Assembly: GCA_977017645.1 (NCBI GenBank)
Contig: OZ360233.1
Span: 21,452,001-21,516,000, forward strand
Direction of reading: 5' to 3'
Source: Torpedo marmorata
Lineage: Eukaryota
Length of the DNA stretch: 64,000 nucleotides
The notes beneath the pieces were generated by a model. That model saw only the letters and a program-made list of their open reading frames with translations, was not told the origin of the DNA and made no database searches. Numbering within the stretch: the stretch's first letter is position 1; every line of letters begins with the position of its first letter. Both the position numbers and the translations under genes were made by a program. Positions 1 through 18,778 of this stretch are shown piece by piece.

Positions 1-518
1 GTTGTATTTTTATACAGTAAGTGTAACGGTGCCTGGAACGGGATGCCAGGGAAGCAGGTACGATGGGAGAGTTTAACAGGCTTCTGAAGTGACACACGAA
101 AGTGTACGTGCAGACGTTTAGTTTACTTTGGACATCACGTTTGGAGTAGACATCGTGGGCCGAATGGCTTGTTCCTTTGCTCTACTGCTCCATATTGTAT
201 GTTCTCATTAAAAACTAGACAATAGCCCACGCTATAATATTCAAAAGCAGTATCCTGAACACAGGGAGTTCGCAAGTCTCTCCCTAATTCAACGTCAGCA
301 AACTGACTCCAGTCTGAATTGTGCAAGGATATGTTAAGATAGAAAAGGTTACGTTTACGGGCTAGGGCCGTGTCGTTCTTGTAATATGCGGAATTAGTTC
401 AAATTTAATTGGAAAATATGTCATTAAAATGGCCCCACGGGTCTTTGGTGGAATGGGCAACGAACGTGTTTCTCAGACTGCATCTCCCGGGGTTTCTGGT
501 ATGGCATGTGCCACCGTG

Positions 519-581
519 TGAGGTATAGCAGTGGCACCAGACTGATGTTTGGAAAGGGGACGAAACTCCTCGTGGAATCAA
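519..581 (+). CDS. TRAJ: J segment RYSSGTRLMFGKGTKLLVES
   Basis: nonamer GGTTTCTGG 491-499, 12 bp, heptamer CACCGTG 512-518, donor GTAAGT. Confidence 0.9.
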
Positions 582-729
582 GTAAGTGTGACAAATAAGT
601 CATTGGGTTACGCACAAAATGGTCACGGCTCAATATGACACAATTCCATCCGTCGAGTCTAGCTCTTTACAGGCTCTTCGGATCACTTATCCATATCGAC
701 CAAGTTCTCTCCTGGAACTGGTCCCTTTT

Positions 730-1150
730 GTCTGCGTGTGTCCTATATCCCTCTGCATGTTTATTATCCGTCAATCCAATCGTTTTATAAACTTTATAAT
801 TGTACCCGCATCTCTCACCTCCTCTGGCATTTCGTTCTGTACAGAAACCAACCTCTGCGCAAGAAGAACATTTCCCGGTGCTGTTCCCTGGTGTACATTT
901 TAGGTGGAACTAGACATAGCAATCTCAATTTCTCTGAGATTTCCGCCTCTCACCGTAACCTCTTATCTGACTATTTACCTGATTCATGCCCCCATGATTT
1001 TATAACCTGTAGAAAGTCAACCCTCAACCTTCTCTGCTCCATGGAGTAAGGTTTCTGATTTTACAACCTCTCATCATAACTTAAGCTGTTCGTTCCCAGT
1101 AATAATCTCATGAATATTTTCTGCATCCTTTCTAACATAATGACATATTT
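730..1150 (-). mobile_element. Degenerate CR1-like LINE 3' fragment (also in the duplicated copies); boundaries approximate
   Basis: Resembles the reverse complement of the CR1 ORF2 end/3'UTR seen at 11500-12055. Confidence 0.55.
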
Positions 1151-1901
1151 AGTTTCCGATTCAATTTGTGGACCTTTCCTTATCTCTGTGTTGTACACAA
1201 AGGGGAGGGAAATTGGAAGCATATTTACACTGTAGTGTGGCAGATACAAGTTGGTATTTGGATAACGGACGAAGCTGCCTGTGATTCCGAGTGAGTGGGG
1301 AATAGTTCGTATTGGACTTGTTTCATGCTGGAGATATACATATATTGCAAATTTCATCAGAGTTTGAAAATGCAAATTTAGGACGTTATGTAATGTATAG
1401 GTAAATATCATTGAAGTATTGTTAATATAATTGAAAATGTATTGAACCTGCAAAAGATTCCACTCGAAAACAAATATCATCGAAGCCAATACCATCAACG
1501 TTGAAGCATATTGCTTTCGACCATGGTGGAGTAAAAATAAACATAGAGAGGATAAGAAATAGATGCAAGAGTAGACCATTCAGCTTCTCGAGCTTGTTCC
1601 TCAATTGAACTAGACGATTGCTGATACTTCAGCTCAAAACCATTTCCTCTGCTCTCCCCGTATTCCTTCAATGTACAGATATTCATCGATCTCCATTGTG
1701 GGTGAAAGTAGCTCTCCGCTGTACATAGCTACAAATAGCCATCACCCTGAGTGAAGTTATTTCTCCTCAATTCACTTCTAAATGGCCGAGAGCTCATTCA
1801 GAAAATATCCACCCCTTTATTTTAAGGGTCACCAGCCGCCTACTTTGTAGTTTGGTCCCTACTCATTGGCAAGAGTTTTTGTACGTCTATCACACACTGT
1901 G

Positions 1902-1963
1902 GCCGAATGCTGGGGGATACGATCTCATATTTGGATCGGGTACGAAACTTACAGTTCAACCAA
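1902..1963 (+). CDS. TRAJ: J segment PNAGGYDLIFGSGTKLTVQP
   Basis: nonamer AGTTTTTGT 1874-1882, heptamer CACTGTG 1895-1901, donor GTAGGT. Confidence 0.92.
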
Positions 1964-2216
1964 GTAGGTTCAAGACGGTTTGTCTGGACTCTTCCAAGGG
2001 TATCGGTTTTTCAATGGTAGCCGTGTGCATCATTATTATGTAACAGAGAAGGTGAAAGCAGGTGATCCAAACAAGTGAGAAATACATCCATATATACTTA
2101 ATGGTGCTTTGTTTTGTCTACACTCTCGATTGTTGTATCTGAGTCGTGTAATGAGCATGGTGCGGACGTAAGATAAAATGGAGTGAATGGTCTCTGTTTG
2201 GGAATTGGACGCTGTG

Positions 2217-2279
2217 TGACTTATACCAGCACTAACGTCGTTGTCTTTGGAAGTGGGACACATTTGACTGTGTAAACGA
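2217..2279 (+). pseudogene. TRAJ: J pseudogene TYTSTNVVVFGSGTHLTV*
   Basis: RSS GGTCTCTGT/CGCTGTG 2189-2216; in-frame TAA 2273-2275; donor mutated to ATAAGT. Confidence 0.87.
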
Positions 2280-2419
2280 ATAAGTCATATCTTATATTTA
2301 TAATGGCATATAAGAAGACTGGTGACAACGCATATTAAAGAGATTCTGACAAACTATTATGGGATTACGTTCATAAATTGAGTCAATCTGTGGAAACGCT
2401 TAACTTTTCAGGGCAAGAC

Positions 2420-3025
2420 TTTAACCAATATTGGTGCTTTCTTTCCATTTGGAAGAACTTAAAGAGGCAATGTGATCTGCAGAAGGCATTATAGGGGTGC
2501 AGGGTCACTGAAACCTTGGATGTACTGATGGTAACAGAATAGGTTGAGACGTTTGTGAATAAAAACAAAGGGAATCCTGCAGGAGATTGTGCAAAGATTT
2601 CGTGTGGAGCTGGTTTGGTCAGAGCGGGAGTATTGGACCTATGACAGACCTTCAAGGTAGGATGTAGAAAGCTCGTCTTATTCTGGTCAGAGCAGAGGAG
2701 GCAAGGGGGGGATGCGACCCAAGTGGCCTGAGGCATGAATGTTCAGACAAACCAAAGTGATCTGCTCTCGTTGGCGGGAAGAGGAAACAGAGGTGAGATC
2801 ACTTGCCATAAAAAGATCGCAGCGAGGAGTGATGACTTTGAGTTCATTGAAGGGAATTTGGAAGCATATTCAACCACAGCTTTCAAGGGGGAGTATACCA
2901 TAGTACAGATGCAGGTGTGGGAAGGTTGCAGATCTGTAAATAAGAGCCCATGGAAAAGGTCTTGGATTAACAGATAACATAGAGGTTTAATGAACCAAAT
3001 AGCCCACTTCTGTGTTCGTTGAGCT
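2420..3025 (+). mobile_element. Degenerate CR1-like LINE 3' fragment; boundaries approximate
   Basis: Remnant 'gcattataggggtgcag...' (ALERVQ-like) and CR1-like 3' tail. Confidence 0.5.
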
Positions 3026-3225
3026 TCTTGGCAATCAAATAAATTGCCTAAAGAGGGACTTTCTGCGTCCTAACGTTTAGGAAACGCTGCGAATAATAAA
3101 CTGGTGTCCCTGAACGTGTTATTAGTGGCAATAGTTAACTTGGTAACTAATTCCAAAACCTTTCAGGAATTTCACGTTCAGGAAGTTTGATTGGGAACTA
3201 AATCAGGGCAATGCATTCAGAAGCG

Positions 3226-3267
<42 letters not shown>

Positions 3268-3402
3268 AGAAGCGAACATTGTCCAACTATGGAAGAGGCA
3301 GGCTAATATCAGGATATTGAATCAAACTGACGGTGTAGCTCAGTGAGTGATGATATTCTCACGTCAGCTTCCACGGTTGACAATGGTTGGTGTGATAGTG
3401 TG

Positions 3403-3459
3403 TGAATCATTGGAAATCCGTGCTTATATTTTGAAGTATATCATTGATTGCGAGACCCA
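3403..3459 (+). pseudogene. TRAJ: Degenerate J pseudogene (LIF*SISLIARP), type C
   Basis: heptamer-like TAGTGTG 3396-3402, TTT TGA in place of FG, donor GTAAT. Confidence 0.65.
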
Positions 3460-3616
3460 GTAATAATTTGAATAAATAATAGCTCAAATCTAAACTTTCG
3501 TGAAAACTCACAAAATTGGTGATTGCTATTTTATCTTTTGAAATAAAATATGCAATAACAGTAGTGCAGCGGGAGGTCAACTAAACTGAGTTCTTGTGAG
3601 GAGTTCACATGCTGTG

Positions 3617-3679
3617 TGAGTTCTGGAGGGTTCAACAAGATAGTATTTGGAAGCGGCAGCAGGCTAATGGTTAATCCTG
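3617..3679 (+). CDS. TRAJ: J segment SSGGFNKIVFGSGSRLMVNP
   Basis: nonamer AGTTCTTGT 3589-3597, heptamer TGCTGTG 3610-3616, donor GTAAGA. Confidence 0.88.
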
Positions 3680-3862
3680 GTAAGACCTCAATATTCAAAT
3701 ATAGTTTCATTCTTCTACACTCCAGAGAATAAAATCATAACCTGTTTTACCTTTCCCTGTAATTCAGTTCCACATGTCCTGTCAAAATCCTTGTCAATCT
3801 TCTCTGCACGCTTTCAATCAAAATACCCTTGTGGTGTTTTTGTACCGGTGATTAGTACTGTG

Positions 3863-3922
3863 TGGATTATAGTAACACTGGTCTGACATTCGGCCCAGGA
3901 ACGAGGTTAACAGTGAAGCCCA
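3863..3922 (+). CDS. TRAJ: J segment DYSNTGLTFGPGTRLTVKP
   Basis: nonamer TGTTTTTGT 3835-3843, heptamer TACTGTG 3856-3862, donor GTAAGT. Confidence 0.92.
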
Positions 3923-4282
3923 GTAAGTTTTTAAAATGCTAATTCATCAACGACCTTCTCTTTCTGCTTCATTTGTATACCTGGTTATCAGATTTCTAGA
4001 GATGTGATATAAAATCGAGCAATTCGTATTATCCTGAAGTATTTTTCAATATGCGGCTTTAATCTGGAATAATAACACGGACAGGAGAGACTCCTGGCCC
4101 AGCAATGGAGGGATCGGAAAGGGAGAGGAGAAAATAACCTTAATGGGTCATGAGCAGAGTAGAAGAGAATAAAGTTAGAATCAAATGTTGCACGTTATCT
4201 CATTGCTTGGACTGCATGAGGTAAAAGCATGTCTGAGTAATTGGTGCTTGCAGAGGTTTTTCTGACGGGGTTGGGCATTCTG

Positions 4283-4344
4283 TGAATAACTTGGGATCCA
4301 CGCCTCTCGTCTTTGGAAGTGGCACCAAACTGAATGTAGACCCA
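4283..4344 (+). pseudogene. TRAJ: Probable J pseudogene NNLGSTPLVFGSGTKLNVDP
   Basis: nonamer GGTTTTTCT 4255-4263; heptamer CATTCTG lacks terminal GTG; weak donor GTTGAT in the wrong phase. Confidence 0.75.
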
Positions 4345-5112
4345 GTTGATGGTTTCATCCACTACCAACCACCAGTTGCTTGAGTTCTAATATCTCGTGT
4401 ATATCCTTTAGTAAATTATTATCGTCTATCTAATGTTTACCAATAGTGTCGACGATCTATTTCTGTTAAAAAAACATATGGGCAAGTAAACTGCAGCCTT
4501 CTTCTCACCAATTAAATAATCCATATATATAACTGGGTAATATTTATTTGTGAATGTTACTAGTTTCCCGCTGGTCCTGATTGTGTTGTTGTAGTTTCAT
4601 GCAAAACTATTTGTTGTTCCACATCTGGAGGAACTCGTCAGTAAATAAGCCCTGGGGTTAATCTAACAGTACTGTGTATACCTTTCATTTTGATTTCAAT
4701 GTGATTTGAAATCTTGTCAGCGCTGAGTCTTCCTCAGGTCAAAGTAACGGTTTTCTTATACTGCTTCAGAATTTAAAACGGAATCACAATCTGGAATTTG
4801 TAAATGCATCTTGCCCCATATTATTCGTTGTCAATAGGTCGTGCAACTGTTCTGTTATTAGTTGTGCAGTGTGGATTCTGGCACAATAAATAGGAGAGGG
4901 TGTGTTTGTTATTGCGATCGAGGTGGACACAAAAATATAGAAGAGGGTGGTCGAGATCATTGAAAGGCTGGGGACTTGATTTACAAATTAGGTCCAAACA
5001 ACAAACTATTGGGGATATGCGCATGAAACACGTATTGGTTGTTTAATGTGATGAAGTTCTCCCCTGCAGCAATGTATATCCTGGTGTTTTTGTACAGGCA
5101 GTTGGTAATTTG

Positions 5113-5178
5113 GGTACACTGGTGGAATTGCTGGGAAGTTAACATTTGGATCAGGAGCCAGGTTAACTGTCACCACAA
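5113..5178 (+). CDS. TRAJ: J ORF YTGGIAGKLTFGSGARLTVTT with defective heptamer
   Basis: nonamer TGTTTTTGT 5085-5093; 12-bp heptamer position reads TAATTTG; donor GTATGT. Confidence 0.75.
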
Positions 5179-5407
5179 GTATGTATTTCAAAGGGCAGTT
5201 TACGAAATTCTTGTTGTCGTGTCGAATTGTAATAACTGGTTTCTGCCTTTTAAATACCTGGTCGAAATTGACGAAAGACGAAATAAACTGCAAATGTATG
5301 AAATCTGAACCAGAAAGAGTTATCGCAGGGAGTGATTAACAAGTCAAGCATCGTCAGTAAAGAAGGTGACAGAGACAACATTTCAAATCAGACACCTTAG
5401 CTAACCG

Positions 5408-5697
5408 CTTCTCTATCTCTCTCTCTCTCTTTCTCCCTCTCTCTCTCTCGCTCTCATCTCTCTTTTCTCTACATCTTTCCCCTCTCTCCTCTATCTCCTC
5501 TCTCTCTTTCTCTCCCCCTCTATCTCCTTTCTCCCTCTTTCCCTTTCTACCTCCTCTCTCTCACTCTCCACTCTCTTTCTTTCCTCCCGCCTGCGTTTCT
5601 CACATGCTCACCTCTCTCATTCCTCCTCGCACTCTCTCTCCCCATCGCTTCTCTCTCCCCCTCTCTCTCACTCTCTGTATCCTCTCCTTCACTCTAC
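5408..5697. repeat. CT-rich low-complexity tract followed by N run 5714-5923 (copy at ~19843-20127, N run 20144-20297)
   Basis: Direct reading. Confidence 0.9.
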
Positions 5698-6487
5698 AGT
5701 ACGCGTTTTCGTTNNNNNNNNNNNNNNNNNNNNNNNNNNNNNNNNNNNNNNNNNNNNNNNNNNNNNNNNNNNNNNNNNNNNNNNNNNNNNNNNNNNNNNN
5801 NNNNNNNNNNNNNNNNNNNNNNNNNNNNNNNNNNNNNNNNNNNNNNNNNNNNNNNNNNNNNNNNNNNNNNNNNNNNNNNNNNNNNNNNNNNNNNNNNNNN
5901 NNNNNNNNNNNNNNNNNNNNNNNCGACTTTATCTTTTAATAGAAACAAGAATCATTCTCATCTGGATTAATGTCCGGCCATTTGATAATAAGTTCGTCTA
6001 TGCACTTCAACCAAGAGTCTCTCACAGTAATTTAGTCGCGTTCAAATAATACTTAGATAGATGCAAAAAGAATAGGAAACTCTGCCGAACTAGGAGACCG
6101 TTCTCGTAAAGGTTTCAACATGTATTAGATCTGATTATTTAAATGCAGTCCGGTCAGCATACCCGCGGATTTAAGGGCTGACGCATCAGATATTGGAACA
6201 ATTCACAAAAGCCACCGCTTACTTTTGAAATCGATTGGATCCTCTGCATTGTTTAAAGAACTCCAATTATTTTTACGTGCGTTCTGTGCAGTAAGATTTC
6301 ACGAAATGTTTACAGTCCATTTGACTTATTGGTTTCGAGTGACTACTTATTATTTTGGAGGGAATTCTATTAAAGGCATATTGATCATGTGTAAATGAGG
6401 TAGGAATGAGAACAATGTCGGTCTAAGATGTCATTTTCAAGATCAAAATAACCCGGAGGTGTTTTTGTATCGGTGATTCGCATTGTG

Positions 6488-6544
6488 TGAATTCTGCTAA
6501 TGACATAACATTTGGCCCAGGGACGAGGTTAACAGTGACGCCCA
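6488..6544 (+). CDS. TRAJ: J segment NSANDITFGPGTRLTVTP
   Basis: nonamer TGTTTTTGT 6460-6468, heptamer CATTGTG 6481-6487, donor GTAAGT. Confidence 0.92.
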
Positions 6545-6921
6545 GTAAGTATTTCAAGCATACTTCACCTTCCTTGTTATCTATCTGTTAAATTGATGGA
6601 TTCTGTTTCCCGGCTCCAGAACTGTGGTCTAACACTGAGGAATTCGTATGATACAGAAATATAGTAATGGGTTTAACTAAGTGCAAAGGGTCGTTGGAAA
6701 ATATTTTATTTTGCAAATAGGACAGGGTTGAATCTTGTCGGAGGAATGGAGAGGGGTGTCCGAGTAAGAAAGGAAACGTTCCAAGATGATTCAGTTTCGG
6801 GGTAATAGGGGATTGAAACTCCAGTCAAATGTTATGACTTGCTCTGACTTCCTCTGGGCTGCGTGAGGATACGGGCCAACTGAGTAACCGGAAAAGTTTT
6901 GTGACAGGGTTCAACGTTCTG

Positions 6922-6973
6922 TAAATGGCTTGGGATCAGCTCCTCTCATATTCGGAGGTCACCTTCGAACCCA
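6922..6973 (+). pseudogene. TRAJ: J pseudogene NGLGSAPLIFGG.. with FR4 deletion
   Basis: nonamer-like 6894-6902, heptamer CGTTCTG, deletion after FGG, donor GTAAGT; paralog of 4283. Confidence 0.8.
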
Positions 6974-7740
6974 GTAAGTTGGACAATACCTTTATATGTT
7001 GCTCAGCAACCAGTTGCACGTCCGTACATTTAGTGTGTGTAGCTTATTGACACATGGTCAGAGGTGACATGTAGTCAGCCATCATATCCTTTTCAAAGAA
7101 AGTGTGGGCGTGTAATCAATTATATGTTACTCAGCCACGGCCTTTTGCTGTCCAACTTAACGGCGAATATTCATCACAAATTGTATTCTATTTGTAACTG
7201 TGAGGAACTGCCTATTACATTTTTATAATAATGTCGCACCTTAATGGAAAAAAAGGGTATGTTGTTCCAAATCGGGAATAAATACAAGCAGTTTCAGATC
7301 CCCCTGAAATGTTAAAATCCGACAGAACATGTGATGAATCACGTCCAAAGAGAATTAGGTCACAAATACGCGCTTGAGGTTAATCCACCAATACTTGAAC
7401 ATTTACAGTGCGTCTATCAACTGATCTCTGAAATCGTGTCAGAAATAAATTATACTCCGTGGAAGGGATGTACTTCCTGAAGCTGTTTCATGGCCATTTT
7501 GTAAGGAATAAATCTTGTTAGACAGTTTATCGTTCTTAAGAAATAAATGTCAGGTCTTCAGTTGTGAGTTCGGCAGAGTGAGTTCAGGAAGTAAATAACC
7601 TGACAAATAAGCCTGATCTTCAATACTGTGATCGAGGTGGCTATGTTTCTATTGGGAAAAGTGAAAAAAGACATTGTATCGATGACGAGAGGATGGAAAG
7701 GTTGGGTTTAGAAGAAGGAGGGTGGGTTTATTCAAACAGA

Positions 7741-7962
7741 AGGGTGGCACGGTTGGCGTAGCGGGTAGCGCAACGCTTTTACCGCGCCAGCGACCAGGAC
7801 CGGACCGGGGTTCGAATCCCGCGCTGTCTAAAAGGAGTTAATATATTCTCCCCGTGTCTGCGTGGGTTTTCTCCGGGGCTCCGGTTTCCTCCCACCGTTC
7901 AAACATCGTACCGGAGGTGTAGGTTAATGGGGGTAACTAGGGCGGCACGGACTCATGGGTCT
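7741..7962 (+). mobile_element. tRNA-derived V-SINE (HE1-like)
   Basis: A-box TGGCGTAGCGG, B-box GGTTCGAATCC, V-domain TTCTCCCCGTGTCTGCGTGGGTTTTCTCCGG..CTCCGGTTTCCTCCCAC. Confidence 0.85.
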
Positions 7963-8583
7963 AAATTATAAAAAAAAATATCCTAAAGGACACGCTGAGA
8001 GGCTGCGATGCCTGAATCTAGACCAAAAGCAATATGGCGGAGGTTCTCAGCGGGCCGAGCAACGAGATTTGGAAAAAAGGAATGAGCGACGTCTTGAACG
8101 TTTGCAATCCGAAACGTCGACCATTCTTTTCTCTCGATCGAGTGAGTTCCTCAGGCAGATTTTGTTTTGCTTAAGATCTTAATGGGCCTTGGCAGGGTTG
8201 ATGTTGAGGTATTCAAGGTTCAAGTTTCCTTTCATTTCCACGAAATAATACCTTAAAATGTAATAGTGAGAAGAATGTCGAGTGAGGGGACATAGTTACA
8301 AAATAACGGGCTGGTGACAGATGTGTTAAAGATCAATGAATTTAAAGGCATTGGGGAATTGGGGAGAGAAAGGGAGTTAAGGCCTGGAGCGATCTGCCAT
8401 GGTCATGTTGAATGGTAAAGCAGGATGGAGCGGTCTGGTGGTGTAGACCTATTCGTACTTGCTCTTCTGCTCTTGCATGCTTCAAACCTAACGGGAAGCA
8501 ATCTGATTGGGAGTCGAGAAAACAAGGTCAACCTGGTATTGAATATAGTCCCGGGTGTTTTTGTACTGGTCGTTGATACTGTG

Positions 8584-8649
8584 TGAGTTCTGTTGGGGGC
8601 GATAGGAAGATAACGTTCGGACCAGGAACAAGGCTAACCGTGGCTCCCA
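8584..8649 (+). CDS. TRAJ: J segment SSVGGDRKITFGPGTRLTVAP
   Basis: nonamer 8556-8564, heptamer TACTGTG 8577-8583, donor GTAAGT. Confidence 0.92.
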
Positions 8650-9071
8650 GTAAGTTATCCCTACCCAATTTCTCAGTACGCTGAGCCAGAATAGTTCATC
8701 TGGGTTCCAGATTTTCAAAAGAACCTCGAAAATTAGAAAATGCATCACCATTAAAAAAATACTACATGTTGGTAATTAGAAATAAAAACGCAAACGCAGG
8801 AAAATTATAGCAGGATAGTCAGAGTCGGGGAGAGAGGCGTGGAGTCAACGTTTCATATCAATGGCCTGTCTCCCTTTCTCTCCATACATGCCTATTTGAT
8901 TGCTATAAATGCATTCAAAACTGCAAACTAAGATAATACATGCTCATACTGAAGCATAAGATGCATATATTTCATGAGAAAGATGGGAGTACCAGAAGGA
9001 GATAGAGTTGAGTCGCTATTCTCCGGACAAAACAGCCTCGGGGTGTTTTTGTACCCGTGAATAGTACTGTG

Positions 9072-9131
9072 TGAATTCTGGTGTTAACGTTCTGATATTT
9101 GGACCAGGATCGAAGTTGACCGTCATACCCA
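9072..9131 (+). CDS. TRAJ: J segment NSGVNVLIFGPGSKLTVIP
   Basis: nonamer 9044-9052, heptamer TACTGTG 9065-9071, donor GTAAGT. Confidence 0.92.
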
Positions 9132-9642
9132 GTAAGTGTTTCAAACAAAATTTGATCCACGTTCATCTCTTTGCGTTGGTCCTTTTTAGAAATGTGAAAT
9201 AAACAGGGTCGATTCGCAGTGTCCAGAAAAAATTGAAAGAATTACTTTAATTCGGGTGTACAAGGCATTGGGAATAACTGTGCTATTAAAATATAGGTGA
9301 AGCCCTCCCCATGATTAGAGATAGATATGGGGAATAATTGAAGGGAATATCCCAAGATGGACTGGGCAGGAGAATTACTTGCTATCACTTTGAAGGTATC
9401 CAGAAGTGCTGGTGGAGGCTGCTACAACAGGAACATTCAAAATACACAGAGAGTTAAGAAAAATGGGTTATGGGTGTGAAGTAGGAAGGATTACATTGTT
9501 GCGCAGTAGGTTTATATAGGTCGGAAAAATATTGTGGGCTGAGTGACCTGTAACTATGCTGCAATGTTCTATGTTCGACGGTAACAAGATAACTGATTAA
9601 CTGTTGAAGAGAAATGGTTTTGCGGCAGGTTTGAACATTGTG

Positions 9643-9700
9643 TGTGTGGAGACATCCCCCCTCACGTGCGGACGTGAGACCAGCCTCACCGTAGAACCCA
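9643..9700 (+). pseudogene. TRAJ: Atypical J ORF CVETSPLTCGRETSLTVEP (FGxG replaced by CGRE)
   Basis: nonamer TGGTTTTGC 9615-9623, heptamer CATTGTG 9636-9642, donor GTGGGT. Confidence 0.75.
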
Positions 9701-10149
9701 GTGGGTGGAAGAAAATGTCGTTGGATTCAGCACCACCAACCACCAGTTGCTCATGTCCAGCTTAGTGCGAGCGATCTGATAAAATATTTTAACCTGTGTA
9801 TTTTCTGGCGGAGCATCCTCTGGATATGTGGGTGTTGCATATTACTCTGTTTGGCCTTTTGCTCCACACCTTCAAAACATAAAATGAAATAAATAATTGG
9901 AGACAACACTCAGCAGGTCGCGCAGCAGCTGGGGAGAGAGGAAGAAAGACGTAGGGTCAACGTTTCCGATGAATAACACGTTCGGAACTGGCTAAATAGC
10001 GTCAGAGTAATCGGAGATACAGCATAGAAACGCCATGCTTTGGTCCACCGTGCTAGCGTCGACTGTCAACTATCCATTTCTGTTATCCCTACATTAATCC
10101 CATATTTTATCATATGTTCTATTCCACCCACCCCGGGATCTCCCACAAT

Positions 10150-10332
10150 GGTGGCTATTTCCAGTGGCTAATTAAACTTTGGATGTGGGTGGGAGGGACG
10201 GGAAGAATCCAGCGGGTAACCAACGTCGTCGCAGAGATATCGTGCGAACTCCACACAGACAGCACCCGAGGTCAAGATTGAATCCGGATCTCTGGCGCTG
10301 TGCGGCAGCGACTCCACCAGCTACGCCACACT
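10150..10332 (-). mobile_element. V-SINE, reverse orientation (copy at ~24510-24696)
   Basis: Reverse complement has a tRNA-like head (GTGGCGTAGCTGG ... GATTCAATC) and V-domain. Confidence 0.75.
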
Positions 10333-10389
10333 ACGGTCCTAAAGTTCCAATGAAAGTTCATTGTTCCGGGATGTTAACTCATGTTTCTT

Positions 10390-10845
10390 AGAACATTACA
10401 GCAGAGTTCAGGCCCTTCGGCCCACTATTATGTGCCGACTTATATAAGCCTACTCAGCAATCTAACCTTCCCTTCCTCCCACGAGTAACCCTCTATATTT
10501 CTTGCATCCTCGTGCCTGTCTAAGAGTTTTTTAATGTCCCTATTGTACCAGCCTCCACTACCATCCTGCAATGCATTCCTGGCACCCACTCCTCTCTGTG
10601 TAAAAATAATTATCCCTGATTTCTCCCATAAACGTTTCTCCCCTCACCCTATGCAGATGTCCTCTAGTATTTGCTACTGTCGCCCCGGGAAAAAAGGATG
10701 CTGGCTGTCCACTCTATCTATGCCTCTCATAATCTTTTCGACCTCTATTAAGTCGCCTCTCATCCTTCTTCGCTGCAAGGAGAAATCCGTACATCTAATA
10801 ACTTTGCCTTATAAGACACGTTCTCCAATCCAGGAATCATCCCGT
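10390..10845 (-). mobile_element. CR1-like LINE 3' fragment
   Basis: Reverse complement resembles 11620-12055; 'ggcccttcggcccac' 3' tail. Confidence 0.7.
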
Positions 10846-11198
10846 TTCACCGAAGACAGAGATTTGCTTTCCCTGAAATAATTTAAGAATTGCAAATGTG
10901 GGTTTTATTGAAAGGCAACAGATGGGCAAAGATTGACTGTGGATATTGGCAAATCGCCTGGTTGTAGAAAACAATATAGAGGATAACCGAGTGTATGTTA
11001 ACTGCAAACTTTCTGTGACTGGAATAAAACTTTTCAGAAGGATCCGTGAGGGATATGGAAGTTATACAAATGAATTAAGGGATCATGAAACTTTCTGAAT
11101 CAAATGCATGGAAATTTAACCCATACCTGGCAGAGTAAAAGGTCAAAACTGCATAAGTTTTGACTGAGTGGGTTTTTGTGGTGGCGAAAGACAATGTG

Positions 11199-11261
11199 TG
11201 AACTCAGGGGTTGCAGGGAAACTGATATTTGGAGATGGAACACGATTAACCATAGAACCCA
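11199..11261 (+). CDS. TRAJ: J segment NSGVAGKLIFGDGTRLTIEP
   Basis: perfect nonamer GGTTTTTGT 11171-11179, heptamer CAATGTG 11192-11198, donor GTAAGT. Confidence 0.93.
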
Positions 11262-11499
11262 GTAAGTAGTAAAGCAGGTTGGTGAATATTCAGCAGTACC
11301 CATGAATGAACATAAATTATGCAATGCTGCAAGACTGAAATTTAATTTTAAAAATGATACCGACTCTAGGAATTTCAAGCAGCATCTGTGGAAAAGGAAA
11401 CGGAGACAACGTAGACGTTTGGTTTTCCGTTTCTCTTTCCATAACTCTTAACTTTCCAAATGAATGTTACAGGGAGAGATAATTAGATGTCCGGTGGCA

Positions 11500-12055
11500 T
11501 TCTGCCATGTTGGTTTAATTAAATATTATTGCGTTCGGTTCTGGTCGCCTCATTATAGGAAGGATACTGATGCTTTGGAGAGGGTGCAGATGAGATTTAA
11601 CAGGCTGTTGCCTGGATTGGAGAGCGTGTATTATGAAGCAAGGTTGATAGAACTATGGCTTTTCTCTTTCGATCGACGAAGGATGAGAGGTGACTAGAGG
11701 TATTTCAGATCATATGGGGCTTTTTTAGGGTGGAAAGCCAGCGCCTTTTTTCCTGGGCGACAATAGCAAATTCCAAATGCCATCTGTTCAGAGTGTATGG
11801 AGGAAAGCTGAGGAAAGAGGCCAGAGATATGTATTTTTACTCGGAGTGTGGTGGGTGTCTGGAATGCATTGCTGGGCTGGTGGTGGAAAATAGGGGCATT
11901 CAAAAGATTCTAAAATGGTCATATTGATGCAAGACAAATAAGGGGTTATGGGTGTGACGTAGGCAAAATTAGATTGTTGGGGATAAGGTATACATTGGAG
12001 GTCTGAATGGCCTGTACCGTATTGTACTGTACTCTGCTATAGTGTTCTATGTTCT
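11500..12055 (+). mobile_element. CR1 LINE 3' fragment (ORF2 C-terminus + 3'UTR)
   Basis: YCVRFWSPHYRKDTDALERVQ..RRRMRGD is the typical CR1 ORF2 C-terminal motif; (TCTATG)-like tail. Confidence 0.88.
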
Positions 12056-12588
12056 ATATTCCCCCCAAAGGTTGTACGTAGGTTGAGGCAACAACCATGC
12101 AGCATTTGGACTAGAATCTGGCGGTCTAAAGGGAAGTTTAGTCTCTATAAATCCCTCTCTGCGACTTCCTTAAGTTTGAATTGGGACATTTTCTCTTCTT
12201 GTAACTTCGGGGCACTGAGACATCGAGTGTAGTCACAAGGAGCATTAAATAACGTCTCACCTATCATCACATCGCAGAGAAAATATGCTCACAATTACTA
12301 ATGTATTCATGCATAAAACGACAACCAGAACAAACGTTGCACCTCATTGTTTCACTGCACTTTCTAATGATACAGCTTAAACTCTGCATCATTATTTAAT
12401 ATATCATACCGAACGCTCTTCCAATAATAGGCTTAAACAATATATCTTTCAGTGATATATAACAAACGACATTATTCCATCGATAGATATAGATAGAATA
12501 TCCTATTAATACATCATAAAGGACATAGGCCTCACAGTGTAACTTATATAATATCTCTCATGAAATACAAAACATGTTATTCTTAATC

Positions 12589-13530
12589 TTTATTTTTCAA
12601 TATTTTTATTTGTTTCATCAAGTGAATGTTACATAGGTACGTAATAATAAAATAAAGTATTAAAAAAATTACATATAATAATAAAAATGGTGGTAAGACC
12701 TACGTTACATTGAAAATAGCTTTTTTTTAAAAACCTGAAAAAAAGCACTATACTAATTATCAATCCCCTCCCTTCAGAGGCTGCTGGCTAAACATAAACA
12801 GTCCACTACCTAATAATAAAAAAGAAGGTAATCAATGGGATCAAAAACCAACAATTAATTAATCTTACAAATTTCGAAAATAATTAAGAAAAGAACTCCA
12901 TAAGGAAACAAAGTTACGATTCATTTCAGTAGTGGAACATCTAATTTTTTCCAAAGTCAAACATGCCATCATATCAGACAACCATTGAGTATGAGTGGGA
13001 GGGACAGCATCTTTCCATCTCGTTAATATAGCCCTTCTAGCGATAAGGGAAGCAAGAACAACTACATGGGATTGTGACGCAGTCAATATTAGACCCATTG
13101 GCCCACTTATTCCAAAGAAAGCAAGAAAAGGATTTGGAGTCAAATTAATGTTAAGAAATAAAGACAAGGTACGGAATACACCTTCCCAAAAATTAGAAAG
13201 AGAAGGACATAACCAGAACATATGATACAATGTACCTTCTTCAGTTATACATTGATCACATTTAGAATAAAAATCAGAATAGAATTTAGCCAATTGGTCT
13301 TTGGAATAGTGAACCCAGTGTACTACCTTAAATTGTAATAATGAATGTCTGACACAAAGAGAGGATGAGTGCACTCGCTTCAAAAGAGAGTTCCATGCAG
13401 TTTCAGAAATTAATTGTTGAAAATCGTGTTCCCATAGTTTTTTGATTCTGTCCAGGGAACTATCCCTCGAACTTAAATGTAAATCATAAAGGACTGATAA
13501 CATCCGTTTATGATCAAGTTTGAAACTATA
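12589..13530 (-). mobile_element. 5'-truncated L1-clade LINE with 15-bp TSD
   Basis: ORF 12865-13503 has L1 ORF2 C-terminal CxxC..HxxxxC; TSD ATGTTATTCTTAATC at 12574-12588 and 13531-13545; A-rich tail. Confidence 0.9.
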
Positions 13531-13862
13531 ATGTTATTCTTAATCAAGTGCAGACACTCTGTCTCCTAAAATAGCCTTCAGAAGTGAATCTCGTTCAGAG
13601 TTATTCGCTCTTACTGAATTACACCAAATCCTCATCTGTCAAATTGAGTTAGGCAGAATGTGCCAAAACTAAAACCTGGCAGTGAGATCGGTTCAATTAA
13701 TAACGCAATTAATGCAATCCCGCGCCGTGAATGCAGTCAGCATTGTTTTACAAAGATGCCAATTAATTTAGTAACACCCTGAATGTGATATTGACAGCGG
13801 TTCGGCCTAAAAGCCGCTCAGTTGCAAAAGACGGGGTTTTTGTTCATGGCATTTTTACTGTG

Positions 13863-13926
13863 GGATATGATGGATCAGGTTATCGGCTAATATTCGGAGA
13901 TGGGGCCAAGCTCACTGTAATTCCAA
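13863..13926 (+). CDS. TRAJ: J segment GYDGSGYRLIFGDGAKLTVIP
   Basis: perfect nonamer 13835-13843, heptamer TACTGTG 13856-13862, donor GTGAGT. Confidence 0.93.
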
Positions 13927-14009
13927 GTGAGTATGGATCGGTAAAAAACACAAATTCTGGAGAAACTCAGCAGGTCAAACAGTGCATTTTATGTAGCAAA
14001 GGTTGAAAT

Positions 14010-14052
14010 ACATAACCGACGTTTCGGGCTTGAGCCCTTCATCAAAATATGA
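14010..14052 (-). ncRNA. Minimal hammerhead-ribozyme-like motif in a Penelope-like repeat arm
   Basis: Minus strand: UUGAUGA-A-GGGC UCAA GCCC-GAAAC-GUC; C3 is replaced by U. Confidence 0.55.
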
Positions 14053-14934
14053 GAAAATGCGGGCAGGTGTCCGACAGTTCGTGTATAAATTAAGTTTAGG
14101 CTGGATTAACATTTTAAAATGCATCTGTGAATGCTACGAAACTTCGTCAGAGGCGACTTATAACTGCTGGCATTGGCAAAAGAGCCCATGAAGATTTTCA
14201 CGTGTTATTGTAACCAAGCTAATACCGCACGTTGTTTAAATTGGTTGTTTTCTCTGGAACGTCGGAGAATAAGGGGGAGACTTCAGAGAAGTGTATTACA
14301 TTATGAGAGGCAAAGATAGGGTGGATGACAAGAATCTTTTCCAATGGTTAAAAGTCACATACTTGAGGACATGCAATTAAAATGAAGCGGGGAAGGTAAA
14401 GGAGAAGTGCAGGGCTGTTGTTTTTTTATACAGTAAGTGTAATGGTGCCTGGAACGGGATGCCAGGGAAGCAGGTGCGATGGGAGAGTTTAACAGGCTTC
14501 TGAAGTGACACACGAAAGTGCACGTGCAGACGTTTAGTTTACTTTGGACATCACGTTTGGAGTAGACATCGTGGGCCGAATGGCTTGTTCCTTTGCTCTA
14601 CTGTTCCATGTTGTATGTTCTCATTAAAAACTAGACAATAGCCCTCGCTATAATATTCAAAAGCAGTATCCTGAACACAGGGTGTTCGCAAGTCTCTCCC
14701 TAATTCAACGTCAGCAAACTGACTCCAGTCTGAATTGTGCAAGGATATGTTAAGATAGAAAAGGTTACGTTTACGGGCTAGGGCCGTGTCGTTCTTGTAA
14801 TATGCGGAATTAGTTCAAATTTAATTGGAAAATATGTCATTAAAATGGCCCCACGGGTCTTTGGTGGAATGGGCTACGAACGTGTTTCTCAGACTGCATC
14901 TCCCGGGGTTTCTGGTATGGCATGTGCCACCGTG

Positions 14935-14997
14935 TGAGGTATAGCAGTGGCACCAGACTGATGTTTGGAAAGGGGACGAAACTCCTCGTGGAATCAA
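14935..14997 (+). CDS. TRAJ: J segment RYSSGTRLMFGKGTKLLVES (copy 2)
   Basis: RSS 14907-14934, donor GTAAGT. Confidence 0.9.
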
Positions 14998-16318
14998 GTA
15001 AGTGTGACAAATAAGTCATTGGGTTACGCACAAAATGGTCACGGCTCAATATCACACAATTCCATCCGTCGAGTCTAGCTCTTTACAGGCTCTTCGGATC
15101 AATTATCCATATCGACCAAGTTCTCTCCTGGAACTGGTCCCTTTTGTCTGCGTGTGTCCTATATCCCTCTGAATGTTTATTATCCGTCAATCCAATCGTT
15201 TTATAAACTTTATAATTGTACCCGCATCTCTCACCTCCTCTGGCATTTCGTTCTGTACAGAAACCAACCTCTGCGCAAGAAGAACCTTTCCCGGTGCTGT
15301 TCCCTGCTGTACATTTTAGGTGGAACTAGACATAGCAATCTCAATTTCTCTGAGATTTCCGCCTCTCTCCGTAACCTCTTATCTGACTATTTACCTGATT
15401 CATGCCCCCCATGACTTTATAACCTGTAGAAAGTCAACCCTCAACCTTCTCTGCTCCATGGAGAAAGGTTTCTGATTTTACAAGCTCTCATCATAACTTA
15501 AGCTGTTCGTTCCCAGTAACAATCTCATGAATATTTTCGGCATCCTTTCTAACATAATGACATATTTAGTTTCCGATTCAATTTGTGGACCTTTCCTTAT
15601 CTCTGTGTTGTACACAAAGGGAAGGGAAATTGGAAGCATATTTGCACTGTAGTGTGGCAGATACAAGTTGGTATTTGGATACGGGACGAAGCTGCCTGTG
15701 ATTCCGAGTGAGTGGGGAATAGTTCGTATTGGACTTGTTTCATGCTGGAGATATACATATATTGCAAATTTCATTAGAGTTTGAAAATGCAAATTTAGGA
15801 CGTTATGTAATGTATAGGTAAATATCATTGAAGTATTGTTAATATAATTGAAAATGTATTGAAGCTGCAAAAGATTCCACTCGAAAACAAATTATATCGA
15901 AGCCAATACCATCAACGTTGAAGCATATTGCTTTCGACCATGGTGGAGTAAAAAAAAACATAGAGAGGGTAAGAAATAGATGCAAGAGAAGACCATTCAG
16001 CTTCCCGAGCTTGTTCCTCAATTGAACTAGACGATTGCTGATACTTCAGCTCAAAACCATTTCCTCCGCTCTCCCCGTATTCCTTCAATGTACAGATATT
16101 CATCGATCTCCATTGTGGGTGAAAGTAGCTCTCCGGTGTATATAGTTACAAATAGCCATCACCCTGAGTGAAGTTATTTCTCCTCAATTCACTTCTAAAT
16201 GGCCGAGAGCTCATTCAGAAAATATCCACCCCTTTATTTTAAGGATTACCAGCCGCCTACTTTGTAGTTTGGTCCCTACTCATTGCCAAGAATTTTTGTA
16301 CGTCTATCACACACTGTG

Positions 16319-16380
16319 GCCGAATGTTGGTGGATACGATCTCATATTTGGATCGGGTACGAAACTTACAGTTCAACCAA
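16319..16380 (+). CDS. TRAJ: J segment PNVGGYDLIFGSGTKLTVQP
   Basis: nonamer AATTTTTGT 16291-16299, heptamer CACTGTG 16312-16318, donor GTAGGT. Confidence 0.9.
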
Positions 16381-16633
16381 GTAGGTTCAAGACGGTTTGT
16401 TTGGACTCTTCCAAGGGTATCGGTTTTTCAATGGTAGCCGTGTGCATCATTATTATGTAACAGAGCAGGTGAAAGCAGGTGATCCAAACAAGTGAGAAAT
16501 ACATCCATATATACTTAATGGTGCTTTGTTTTGTCTACACTCTCGATTGTTGTATCTGAGTCCTGTAATGAGCATGGTGCGGACGTAAGATATAATGGAG
16601 TGAATGGTCTCTGTTTGGGAATTGGACGCTGTG

Positions 16634-16696
16634 TGACTTATACCAGCACTAACGTCGTTGTCTTTGGAAGTGGGACACATTTGACTGTGTAAAGGA
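16634..16696 (+). pseudogene. TRAJ: J pseudogene (in-frame TAA, no donor), copy of 2217
   Basis: RSS 16606-16633; GTG TAA; donor ATAGGT. Confidence 0.87.
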
Positions 16697-17643
16697 ATAG
16701 GTCATATCTTATATTTATAATGGCATATACGAAGACTGGTGACAACGCATATTAAAGAGATTCTGACAAACTATTATGGGATTACGTTCATAAACTCAGT
16801 CAATCTGTGGAAACGCTTAACTTTTCAGGGCAAGACTTTAACCAATATTGGTGCTTTTTTTCCATTTGTAAGAACTTAAAGAGGCAATGTGATCTGCAGA
16901 AGGCATTATAGGGGTGCAGGGTCACTGAAACCTTGGATGTACTGATGGTAACAGAATAGGTTGAGACGTGTTGTGAATAAAAACAAAGGGAATCCTGGAG
17001 GAGATTGTGCAAAGATTTCGTGTGGCGCTGGTTTGGCCAGAGCGGGAGTATTGGACGTATGACAGACCTTCAAGCAAGGATGTAGAAAGCTCGTCTTATT
17101 CTGGTCAGAGCAGAGGAGGCAAGGGGGGGATGCGACCCAAGTGGCCTGAGGCATGAATGTTCAGACAAATGAAAGTGATCTGCTCTCGTTGGCGGGAGGA
17201 GGAAACAGAGGTGAGATCACTTGCCATAAAAAGATCGCAGCGAGGAGTGATGACTTTGAGTTCATTGAAGGGAATTTGGAAGCATATTCAACCACAGCTT
17301 TCAAGGGGGAGTATACCATAGTACAGATGCAGGTGTGGGAAGATTGCAGATCTGTAAATAAGAGCCCATGGAAAAGGTTTTGAATTAACAGATAACATAG
17401 AGGTTTAATGAACCGAATAGCCCACTTCTGTGTTCGTTGAGCTTCTTGGCAATCAAAGAAATTGCCTAAAGAGGGACTTTCTGCGTCCTAACGTTTAAGA
17501 AAGGCTGCGAATAATAAACTGGTGTCCCTGAACGTGTAATTAGTGGCAATAGTTAACGTGGTAACTAATTCCAAAACCTTTCAGGAATTTCACGTTCAGG
17601 AAGTTTGATTGGGAACTAAATCAGGGCAATGCATTCAGAAGCG

Positions 17644-17704
<61 letters not shown>

Positions 17705-17836
17705 AGCGAACATTGTCCAACTATGGAAGAGGCAGGCTAATATCAGGATATTGAATCAAACTGACGGTGTAGCTCAGTGAGTGATGATATTCTCACGTCA
17801 GCTTCCACGGTTTACAATGCTGGGTGTGATAGTGTG

Positions 17837-17893
17837 GGAATCATTGGAAATCTGTGCTTATATTTTGAAGTATATCATTGATTGCGAGACCCA
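17837..17893 (+). pseudogene. TRAJ: Degenerate J pseudogene type C, copy of 3403
   Basis: TAGTGTG 17830-17836; TTT TGA. Confidence 0.65.
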
Positions 17894-18050
17894 GTAATAA
17901 TTTGAATAAATAATAGGTCAAATCTAAACTTTCGTGAAAACTCACAAAATTGGTGATTGCTATTTTATCTTTTGAAATAAAATATGCAATAACCGTAGTG
18001 CAGCGGGAGGTCAACTAAACTGAGTTCTTGTGAGGAGTTCACATGCTGTG

Positions 18051-18113
18051 TGAGTTCTGGAGGGTTCAACAAGATAGTATTTGGAACCGGCAGCAGGCTA
18101 ATGGTTAATCCTG
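18051..18113 (+). CDS. TRAJ: J segment SSGGFNKIVFGTGSRLMVNP
   Basis: RSS 18023-18050, donor GTAAGA. Confidence 0.88.
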
Positions 18114-18296
18114 GTAAGACCTCAATATTCAAATATAGTTTCATTCTTCTACACTCCAGAGAATAAAATCATAACCTGTTTTACCTTTCCCTGTAATTCA
18201 GTTCCACATGTCCTGTCAAAATCCTTGTCAATCTTCTCTGCACGCTTTCAATCAAAATACCCTTGTGGTGTTTTTGTACCGGTGATTAGTACTGTG

Positions 18297-18356
18297 TGGA
18301 TTATGGTAACACTGGTCTGACATTCGGCCCAGGAACGAGGTTAACAGTGAAGCCCA
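18297..18356 (+). CDS. TRAJ: J segment DYGNTGLTFGPGTRLTVKP
   Basis: RSS 18269-18296, donor GTAAGT. Confidence 0.92.
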
Positions 18357-18716
18357 GTAAGTTTTTAAAATGCTAATTCATCAACGACCTTCTCTTTCTG
18401 CTTCATTTGTGTACCTGGTTATCAGATTTCCAGAGATGTGATATAAAATCGAGCAATTCGTATTATCCTGAAGTATTTTTCAATATGCGGCTTTAATCTG
18501 GAATAATATCACGGACAGGAGAGACTCCTGGCCCAGCAATGGAGGGATCGGAAAGGGAGAGGAGAAAATAACCTTAATGGGTCATGAGCAGAATAGAAGA
18601 GAATAAAGTTAGAATCAAATGTTGCACGTTATCTCATTGCTTGGACTGCATGAGGTAAAAGCATGTCTGAGTAATTGGTGCTTGCAGAGGTTTTTCTGAC
18701 GGGGTTGGGCATTCTG

Positions 18717-18778
18717 TGAATAACTTGGGATCCACGCCTCTCGTCTTTGGAAGTGGCACCAAACTGACTGTAGACCCA
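18717..18778 (+). pseudogene. TRAJ: Probable J pseudogene NNLGSTPLVFGSGTKLTVDP
   Basis: heptamer CATTCTG; donor GTTGAT out of phase. Confidence 0.75.

What the first reader, a model, noticed from the sequence alone, without database searches (positions are those of the whole stretch)
3229..3709. Duplication junction carries a ~480-bp templated insert of two J segments from 14 kb beyond the repeat
Seen: the last copy runs ...CAGAAGCGACC into unique DNA at 31984. In periods 1 and 2 the same site is instead followed by (CA)n plus ~450 bp nearly identical to 45943-46424 (a type C pseudo-J and a type D J), ending at ...ATAGTTTCA. The 8-mer AGAAGCGA occurs on both sides of the microsatellite. Inference: a template-switch (FoSTeS/MMBIR-like) event created the duplication and moved J segments, with their RSS, to a new position in the array. 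A later unequal crossover then copied the junction.
Basis: partly seen in the sequence, partly recalled or inferred. Interest (0 to 1): 0.75.

Follow-up and report, generated by a model that had tools for sequence, protein, structure and literature searches.

The report
Copied patch in T-cell receptor duplication
In a vertebrate T-cell receptor alpha J-segment array, a 14-kb duplication has a 480-base patch, copied from 14 kb further on, stitched into its seam; this is a known kind of DNA-copying accident, and here the moved J segment kept a key motif that the original has since lost.

Summary
In a TCR-alpha J array, a 13.9-kb unit (R) appears three times. The first two copies are followed by a 481-497-bp piece (I) that is 97-98% identical to 45943-46424. 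The 45943 copy is the source: 65-80% old paralogy continues through both of its flanks. The inserts share derived substitutions, and their right end truncates a LINE-like fragment (3-bp microhomology inferred). I and R have the same age (2.7% vs 2.8%). A divergence step near 6.8 kb (1.35% to 3.0%) fits a later unequal crossover. The structure is a direct DUP-NML-DUP, best explained by two template switches in one event; a 28-kb duplication followed by a 14-kb deletion gives the identical product. Corrections: the 8-mer is not junction microhomology (both copies survive; in the source it is a decayed RSS spacer). The piece holds three J relics, and only one is intact with an RSS. That J keeps FGxG in both inserts but reads FGSS at the source. 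Known mechanism class, new setting; modest interest.

The parts
1..3228 (+). R0: right end of the first visible copy of the 13.9-kb repeat unit (left part lies upstream of the window)
   Evidence: 72/3228 differences to copy 2, 97/3224 to copy 3
3196..3216 (+). 21-bp stretch (= 31952-31972 in copy 3) that matches 16 of 21 bases of the source's left flank 45914-45934, in register with the join to within about 3 bp: candidate microhomeology for junction 1
   Evidence: 59 of 20000 random pairs reach the same score (60-bp window, shift up to 5; 30 to 211 of 20000 over the four settings tried)
3228..3229 (.). Junction 1 (forward jump that skips 13,958 bp): end of R joined into the source's (CA)n microsatellite; 0-1 bp exact microhomology
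3229..3709 (+). I1: inserted copy of 45943-46424
   Evidence: 97.5% over 481 bp; 10/442 differences outside the microsatellite
3229..3267 (+). (CA)18 + GA microsatellite, lying where the nonamer of the dead C-type J's RSS should be
   Evidence: alignment to old paralogs
3268..3349 (+). Dead J 1 (paralog of the intact J at 48304 and 50971): decayed spacer (contains the 8-mer), broken heptamer, no FGxG
   Evidence: source copy 45981-46070 hits 48292 (E 3e-4), 50962 (E 2e-3), 57872 (E 3e-3); 12.4 bits on J profile, 0 of 200 shuffles reach it
3375..3462 (+). Dead J 2: an older J relic shared by the old repeat units
   Evidence: 7.6 bits on J profile, 0 of 200 shuffles; weakly positive in 3 of 4 old paralogs (7, 2, 0 of 200 shuffles), no hit in the fourth; E 0.19 window-wide, so weak
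3589..3681 (+). Intact TRAJ: nonamer 3589-3597, 12-bp spacer, heptamer 3610-3616, coding 3617-3679 (SSGGFNKIVFGSGSRLMVNPG), GT donor 3680
   Evidence: best PDB matches are TCR alpha chains, best E 0.0016
3707..3709 (+). Junction 2 (backward jump of about 28 kb): TCA shared by the source end and, by inference from paralogs, the LINE-like fragment it joins
   Evidence: 4 of 4 aligned paralogs of the fragment have the same triplet at this place; 3 BLAST paralogs start at 3707
3707..3815 (-). LINE-like (CR1-type by recall) fragment cut at junction 2; its paralogs run several hundred bases further
   Evidence: family name not confirmed by a tool (searches found nothing for it)
3710..17646 (+). R1: middle copy of the repeat unit, chimeric by divergence
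6300..7300 (.). Zone of the inferred unequal crossover (best point 6774): R1 vs R2 differ by 33/2450 (1.35%) to the left and 3.0% to the right
   Evidence: block permutations 6, 12, 24 of 500
17647..18143 (+). I2: second copy of the insert with both junctions identical; intact J at 18051 (FGTG)
18144..31984 (+). R2: last copy of the repeat unit, keeping the native right flank
31985..45942 (+). U: single-copy interval that was skipped; 11 J-like hits, 8 intact
45943..46424 (+). I0: source; native on both flanks; its J at 46332 now reads FGSS
5714..5923 (.). Assembly gap; a second gap (20144-20297) starts at the homologous base of the next period

Best explanation
The ancestral order was P-R-U-I-V in a germline TCR-alpha J array. 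In one replication-based repair event the nascent strand left the template at the end of R (31984), re-primed 14 kb ahead at the microsatellite that begins I, probably helped by a short imperfect match just upstream, copied about 480 bp, then jumped about 28 kb back to the start of R at a 3-bp match inside a LINE fragment and carried on. The product was P-R-I-R-U-I-V (direct DUP-NML-DUP). A later unequal crossover between the two R copies, about 3 kb right of the junction, added another I+R period. Each period adds about 9 intact J segments, one of them from the insert; the source J later lost its FGxG glycine while both inserted copies kept it. Shown: structure, direction, equal age, shared origin of the two junction copies, divergence step, J status. 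Inferred: the 3-bp microhomology, the role of the imperfect match, the single event, the crossover, any effect on the repertoire.
For: Structure and coordinates. Source native on the right: over the 60 alignment columns after the end, I0 matches four old paralogs at 35/60, 39/60, 41/59, 41/60, and I1 at 15/46, 16/46, 16/45, 14/46. Source native on the left: 45497-45936 aligns to three old inter-J intervals (2, 3, 8 of 500 random stretches reach the score; profile hit E 0.011), while the R end does not (251-314 of 500). Equal age: 24/884 vs 183/6448, p=0.91. Shared derived sites in both inserts: 3503 (old paralogs CCCC, inserts A) and 3620 (ATAA, inserts G). Junction 2 cuts a repeat fragment with a 3-bp match. 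In-register imperfect match at junction 1: 59 of 20000. Chimeric middle copy. The same two-junction structure is described in 3 of 50 PLP1 duplication patients and attributed to two template switches (PMC6902434, section 17 read). Inference: in a two-step history the deletion end would have to fall within about 500 bp of the old junction (a few percent by chance), before the second expansion.
Against: The final sequence cannot separate one event from duplication-then-deletion. The 3-bp match is inferred from paralogs 60-74% identical and is expected at roughly 5% of random joins (my arithmetic). Junction 1 has 0-1 bp of exact microhomology and the imperfect match ends about 12 bp before the join; it was found after the fact and the unedited flanks give no nhmmer hit. 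The crossover model predicts equal low divergence for A1/A2 and the left tract, but they differ (72/3228 vs 33/2450, p=0.017), and the sister relation of copies 1 and 2 comes from the first 800 bp (10/2/25) and is absent in 800-3228 (30/27/30); conversion or rate variation must be added. Li et al. count nested simple events as straightforward explanations of some two-junction clusters (PMC7025897, section 9 read).
Confidence: 0.6

Rival explanations
1. Stepwise simple events: a 28.3-kb tandem duplication of R-U-I (junction 2), then a 14-kb deletion of U from the left copy (junction 1); or a U-deletion allele recombining with an intact allele. The 'insert' is then just the undeleted remnant. 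The unequal crossover follows as before.
For: Gives exactly the same sequence and the same ages. Both joins are in direct orientation, so no inversion demands a complex mechanism. The array has a long record of duplication and decay (old 65-80% units at 45-63 kb).
Against: Needs a non-homologous deletion ending within 481 bp of the earlier junction, fixed in the short interval between about 2.8% and about 1.4-2.2% divergence. This is a probability argument, not a test.
Confidence: 0.27
2. The junction is real but the middle period is a false duplication: contig 5924-20143 is the other allele placed in tandem, so no later crossover occurred. This concerns copy number only and is compatible with either origin of the junction.
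For: That contig is one period long and bounded by gaps that begin at homologous bases. Gaps between copies are a listed sign of false duplications (PMC9516828, passages read).
Against: The low-divergence tract runs past the gap: 10/780 differences in 5961-6774 against 23.4 expected at 3.0% (P=0.0016), and the change-point fit is better at 6774 (24.5) than at the gap (15.0). The two 'alleles' would differ by 1.4-2.2% over about 6 kb. A hard-to-sequence stretch would break true paralogs at the same place too.
Confidence: 0.12
3. The junction itself is a mis-assembly through the (CA)n microsatellite.
For: Junction 1 passes through a simple repeat and the assembly has five gaps.
Against: The microsatellite is only 36-58 bp; both junctions lie about 2 kb from the nearest gap; they were assembled twice with 8 private differences; the inserts share 8 substitutions absent from the source; junction 2 is in non-repetitive J-intron sequence on its left side.
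Confidence: 0.03
4. RAG-mediated germline rearrangement, a re-integrated excision circle, or a retro-copied transcript.
For: The locus is a RAG substrate, and germline segmental duplication through circles has been proposed (PMC7450558, search listing and start of abstract only).
Against: Neither join lies at a heptamer/coding border: junction 1 is about 50 bp left of a dead heptamer, and junction 2 is 30 nt into the intron after the GT donor. No poly-A tail, no target-site duplication flanking the piece, intronic DNA retained. A circle would need the same two novel joins.
Confidence: 0.02

Closest known systems
Direct-orientation DUP-NML-DUP by two template switches (FoSTeS/MMBIR), as at human PLP1 (PMC6902434; passages and section 17 read)
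   Same: Two directly oriented duplicated segments with a single-copy interval between them; one join from the distal end of the first to the proximal end of the second, the other from the distal end of the second back to the proximal end of the first; short exact or imperfect matches at the joins.
   Different: Here it is an old (about 2.8% diverged) event in an assembled genome rather than a patient allele; the second segment is only 0.48 kb; it was later re-amplified; the imperfect match (16/21) ends about 12 bp short of the join, outside that paper's at-the-join definition (7-14 bp, 70-90%).
Templated-insertion cycles and local two-jumps in cancer genomes (PMC7025897; passages and section 9 read)
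   Same: Two junctions, copy gain at both the host segment and the inserted template, path returns to re-replicate the host segment.
   Different: Somatic there; templates typically on other chromosomes, and the local two-jumps they call non-trivial involve inverted joins. This case has only direct joins, so sequential simple events remain possible.
TRAJ arrays of jawed vertebrates (salmonids PMC8559430, nurse shark PMC5931798; passages read)
   Same: Long array of 12-spacer J segments with FGxG and GT donors, many duplicated, some ORF (no FGxG) or pseudogene; salmon has 128 with 15 lacking FGxG.
   Different: In the passages read those papers do not resolve duplication breakpoints; here both joins, the source and the order of events can be read at base level.
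Non-allelic homologous recombination (unequal crossover) between tandem segmental duplicates (established knowledge, recalled)
   Same: Explains the second I+R period with identical joins and a chimeric middle copy.
   Different: Cannot create either original join; the mosaic suggests added gene conversion.

Membership tests
Functional TRAJ segment (J at 3617 and 18051) | RSS with 12-bp spacer 5' of the coding part | tested here: met
   nonamer and heptamer match 12 of 16 consensus bases (consensus recalled) and are identical in the old intact paralogs at 48669 and 55194
Functional TRAJ segment (J at 3617 and 18051) | Open frame with FGxG and GT donor | tested here: met
   FGSG and FGTG, GTAAGA donor; the source at 46332 reads FGSS and fails
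Functional TRAJ segment (J at 3617 and 18051) | Similarity to TCR alpha J regions | tested here: met
   63 PDB sequences at E up to 10; the 60 shown are all TCR chains, nearly all named alpha; best E 0.0016
Functional TRAJ segment (J at 3617 and 18051) | Used in rearranged transcripts; TRAC downstream | not testable with these tools
   no RNA data; no constant exon was looked for beyond the ORF list
Functional TRAJ segment (dead J at 3268 and 3375) | RSS, FGxG, open frame | tested here: not met
   classed non-intact; microsatellite in place of the nonamer at 3229-3267
Direct DUP-NML-DUP (structure class) | Two directly oriented gained segments with a copy-neutral interval | tested here: met
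   R and I gained, U single copy
Direct DUP-NML-DUP (structure class) | Two joins: distal first to proximal second; distal second to proximal first | tested here: met
   31984 to 45943 and 46424 to 18144-equivalent
FoSTeS/MMBIR product | Microhomology or microhomeology at the joins | tested here: inconclusive
   junction 2: 3 bp inferred from 4 paralogs; junction 1: 0-1 bp exact, 16/21 match 12 bp upstream, 59 of 20000; the 8-mer is not at a join
FoSTeS/MMBIR product | Both joins formed in one event | not testable with these tools
   equal ages are predicted by both one-step and two-step paths
Unequal crossover (NAHR) product | Identical joins in both periods and a chimeric middle copy | tested here: met
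   step at about 6774, 0 of 200 site permutations, 6-24 of 500 block permutations
Unequal crossover (NAHR) product | One uniform young age for all sequence copied in the crossover | tested here: not met
   1.35% vs 2.23%, p=0.017; star-like in 800-3228
RAG-mediated rearrangement | Break at heptamer/coding border | tested here: not met
   join positions
Retro-copy | Poly-A tail, target-site duplication, spliced sequence | tested here: not met
   none at 3229 or 3709
False haplotypic duplication (middle period) | Copy bounded by assembly gaps | tested here: met
   gaps 5714-5923 and 20144-20297 at homologous bases
False haplotypic duplication (middle period) | Divergence step exactly at the gap | tested here: not met
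   10/780 beyond the gap vs 23.4 expected
False haplotypic duplication (middle period) | Half read depth, discordant pairs | not testable with these tools
   no reads available
CR1-type LINE (fragment at 3707-3815) | Interspersed, degenerate coding copies on both strands | tested here: met
   copies near 10.5k, 11.6k, 24.8k, 26k, 41.2k, 49.5k with related decayed frames
CR1-type LINE (fragment at 3707-3815) | Database match to a named CR1 ORF2 | tested here: inconclusive
   no hit for a 43-aa paralog piece nor in Pfam; the name rests on recall

The most novel reading that the evidence does not exclude
A single germline template-switch event re-ordered a TCR-alpha J array and handed a J specificity over to its copies: the J was moved 28-43 kb toward the 5' end of the array, the two copies kept FGxG under selection and the source decayed to FGSS. 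Copy-and-paste repair, not only unequal crossover, would then be a route by which J order (and so the place of a J in primary versus secondary rearrangement) evolves, here possibly in a cartilaginous fish.
Probability: 0.3. Interest if true: 0.5.

Novelty: new member of a known kind. Interest (0 to 1): 0.33.

Why it matters
TRAJ arrays are known to grow by duplication, but the joins are seldom resolved. This case gives both joins, the source, the relative dates and a candidate crossover point. If one event is confirmed, it shows that the complex rearrangements known from human disease also remodel antigen-receptor loci over evolutionary time and can move a J out of order. The FGxG kept in the copies and lost at the source makes a cheap test: TCR-alpha transcripts should use the S-S-G-G-F-N-K copies and not the N-S-G-G-F-N-K source. 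It does not reveal a new mechanism, and the functional payload is one J among 37 intact ones in the window.

Tried and rejected
1) Old paralogy between the R end and the source's left flank, which would make junction 1 a recombination between old repeats and the 8-mer one ancestral site kept twice. But a profile of C-type J upstream regions and of old inter-J intervals did not recognise the R end (scores at the null median), while it did recognise the source flank. I keep it only as short chance-made homeology. 2) The 8-mer as microhomology or target-site duplication: rejected, it flanks the microsatellite, not the join or the insert. 3) U as a late insertion into an ancestral R-I adjacency: rejected, the old unit (J at 45427, interval, dead J, D-type J) spans the U/I0 border. 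4) Naming the LINE or the organism by protein search: no hit; Pfam gave 1 weak hit (zf-RVT, E 0.0029) for 1 of 7 peptides, at 12868-13533, not for this element. 5) Five J peptide strings searched in the paper library: 0 papers. 6) The last step failed and was replaced by the alignment; one search failed on an option and was rerun. No structure or complex prediction was run: nothing here depends on one. No eukaryotic genome or read collection was available, so orthologs and read support are unchecked.

Full report
Setting. The window is a vertebrate antigen-receptor J array. A motif scan found J-like segments on the + strand only, nearly all with 12-bp spacers. A profile built from 29 of them gave 72 hits at E up to 1, against 5 on the reversed window (best E 0.0078). 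By my criteria (RSS match of at least 11 of 16 recalled consensus bases, FGxG, no stop, GT donor) 37 of the 72 are intact. The J at 3617 matches TCR chains in the PDB, nearly all named alpha, best E 0.0016, so this is TRAJ. The organism was not identified by any tool; a cartilaginous fish is my guess from recalled repeat types. The assembly has five N gaps of 139-210 bases.

Observation. Self-BLAST gives the order R0(<1-3228), I1(3229-3709), R1(3710-17646), I2(17647-18143), R2(18144-31984), U(31985-45942), I0(45943-46424), V. I1 matches I0 at 97.5% over 481 bp without gaps. Outside the microsatellite the differences are I1/I0 10/442, I2/I0 14/442 and I1/I2 8/442. Both joins are identical in the two periods.

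Direction of copying. Four old paralogs of the piece (65-80% identical; near 48.6, 52.4, 55.2 and 58.2 kb) stay aligned with I0 beyond 46424 (35/60, 39/60, 41/59, 41/60) but not with I1 beyond 3709 (15/46, 16/46, 16/45, 14/46). On the left, 45497-45936 aligns with three old inter-J intervals (2, 3 and 8 of 500 random stretches reach the score; profile E 0.011) and the R end does not (251, 314, 312 of 500). I0 is therefore native and I1/I2 are derived. At 8 sites both inserts differ from I0; two are clearly derived in the inserts (3503, 3620), three look derived in the source (3531, 3555, 3655) and three are ambiguous. The inserts thus share one origin and are not misplaced source reads.

Cargo. 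The piece holds three J relics. Dead J 1 (3268-3349) is a paralog of the intact J at 48304 and 50971; a (TA)(CA)(GA) microsatellite lies where its nonamer should be and the 8-mer is its decayed spacer. Dead J 2 (about 3375-3462) is weaker: 7.6 bits, 0 of 200 shuffles, weakly positive in 3 of 4 old paralogs. The third (3589-3681) is intact. It reads FGSG in I1 and FGTG in I2 but FGSS in I0; three of the four old paralogs keep the glycine codon's second motif intact or its first base (column reads GGGG at 3655), so the loss is derived in the source. By the IMGT rule quoted in PMC8559430 (passages read), a J without FGxG is an ORF rather than functional. Each period carries 17 J-like hits, 9 intact.

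Junction 2 (I to R start). R begins inside an interspersed, decayed coding element on the minus strand. Three paralogs align from 3707 (60-74%) and run several hundred bases further, so the element is cut at the join. Four of four aligned paralogs carry the same triplet that ends the source, giving an inferred 3-bp microhomology, about a 5% chance event by my arithmetic. The native flank lies upstream of the window. I call the element CR1-like from recall; the searches did not name it.

Junction 1 (R end to I start). Exact microhomology is 0-1 bp. The 8-mer does not lie at the join: both copies survive, 49 bp apart, and an 8-or-longer match arises in 48 of 4413 random stretches. A 21-bp stretch ending 12 bp before the break matches the source flank at 16 of 21, with offset 13,962 against a join offset of about 13,959. 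Random pairs reach that score in 30, 59, 109 and 211 of 20000 trials under four settings. With the microsatellite removed, nhmmer puts the R ends among the best non-J hits (E 0.29, 0.52), but the unedited flank gives no hit. This fits microhomeology-aided annealing but was found after the fact. The stronger idea of old paralogy failed two profile tests.

Timing and second step. I against I0 (24/884) and the R ends against copy 3 (183/6448) have the same divergence (p=0.91). R1 against R2 shows a step near 6774: 33/2450 (1.35%) left, 3.0% right; 0 of 200 site permutations and 6, 12, 24 of 500 block permutations reach it. This is what an unequal crossover about 3 kb right of the junction predicts. 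Against a clean model: A1/A2 is 2.23%, higher than the left tract (p=0.017), and the sister signal for copies 1 and 2 (40/29/55, p=0.016) comes from the first 800 bp (10/2/25) and is absent in the rest (30/27/30). The two expansions were close in time or have since exchanged sequence.

Assembly. The contig 5924-20143 is one period long and bounded by gaps at homologous bases, a sign listed for false duplications (PMC9516828, passages read). The low-divergence tract, however, extends past the gap (10/780 vs 23.4 expected, P=0.0016). I give 0.12 to a false middle period and 0.03 to a false junction.

Mechanism. The structure is a direct DUP-NML-DUP. PMC6902434 (passages and section 17 read) reports this copy pattern in 9 of 50 PLP1 patients, three with exactly these two joins, explained by two template switches, and microhomeology at 19 of 57 joins. 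PMC7025897 (passages and section 9 read) describes templated-insertion cycles, and treats some direct two-junction clusters as nested simple events. Both paths give this sequence. I favour one event (0.6 against 0.27) because a separate non-homologous deletion would have to end within 481 bp of the old join in a short time window; that is inference. RAG action and retro-copying are excluded by the join positions.

Novelty. The mechanism class is known. Four searches showed no paper resolving TRAJ duplication joins or holding these J sequences; only the top 12-20 listings were seen, the library lacks most subscription journals, and no supplements or figures were examined, where shark TRAJ lists may lie. 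PMC5931798 (passages read) notes that sharks have many J-alpha segments and that successive rearrangements use them. The most interesting residue is the J whose moved copies kept FGxG while the source lost it; a single substitution cannot show selection, but transcripts can test it.

Noticed in passing
window 45400-63500: Four to five much older (65-80% identical) repeat units, each with the same run of J types and different members decayed: an earlier round of array expansion.
   Followed up: partly
window 45931-45982: A (TA)(CA)(GA) microsatellite sits at the nonamer position of a dead J's RSS; it may have grown from the TA-rich nonamer of this J type and helped kill it.
   Followed up: partly
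window 31999-32270: An element with 45-bp inverted arms (32033-32077 and 32222-32266, 76%) begins 15 bp right of the R break; related short copies lie at about 8.0k, 14.0k, 22.4k, 28.3k, 45.0k. A hairpin could have stalled a fork here; untested.
   Followed up: partly
window 5714-5923 and 20144-20297: Two assembly gaps begin at the same base of consecutive periods, just after a TC-rich tract.
   Followed up: partly
window 7210-8610 and 12810-13510 vs R2: Two patches of 5.5-6.3% divergence between R1 and R2, about twice the mean; one overlaps sequence with a paralog at 51461-51680. Possible conversion from other copies.
   Followed up: no
window 3386-3419 equivalent in I2 (17820-17853): Four of I2's six private substitutions cluster within 34 bp; I1/I2 differences are 7 transversions to 1 transition.
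   Followed up: no
window 2217, 16634, 30977: A J with a good RSS and FGxG but an in-frame stop and no GT donor in all three copies, so it died before the duplication.
   Followed up: no
window 5084-5181 and 19518-19615: A J with intact coding part and donor whose nonamer lies about 24 bp from the heptamer instead of 12.
   Followed up: no
window 12865-13533 (-): 222-aa stop-free frame with a weak zf-RVT match (E 0.0029, below cut-off): the end of another non-LTR retroelement.
   Followed up: partly
window 1395-1435, 15812-15852, 30154-30194: A 20-bp two-copy tandem repeat present in all three R copies.
   Followed up: no
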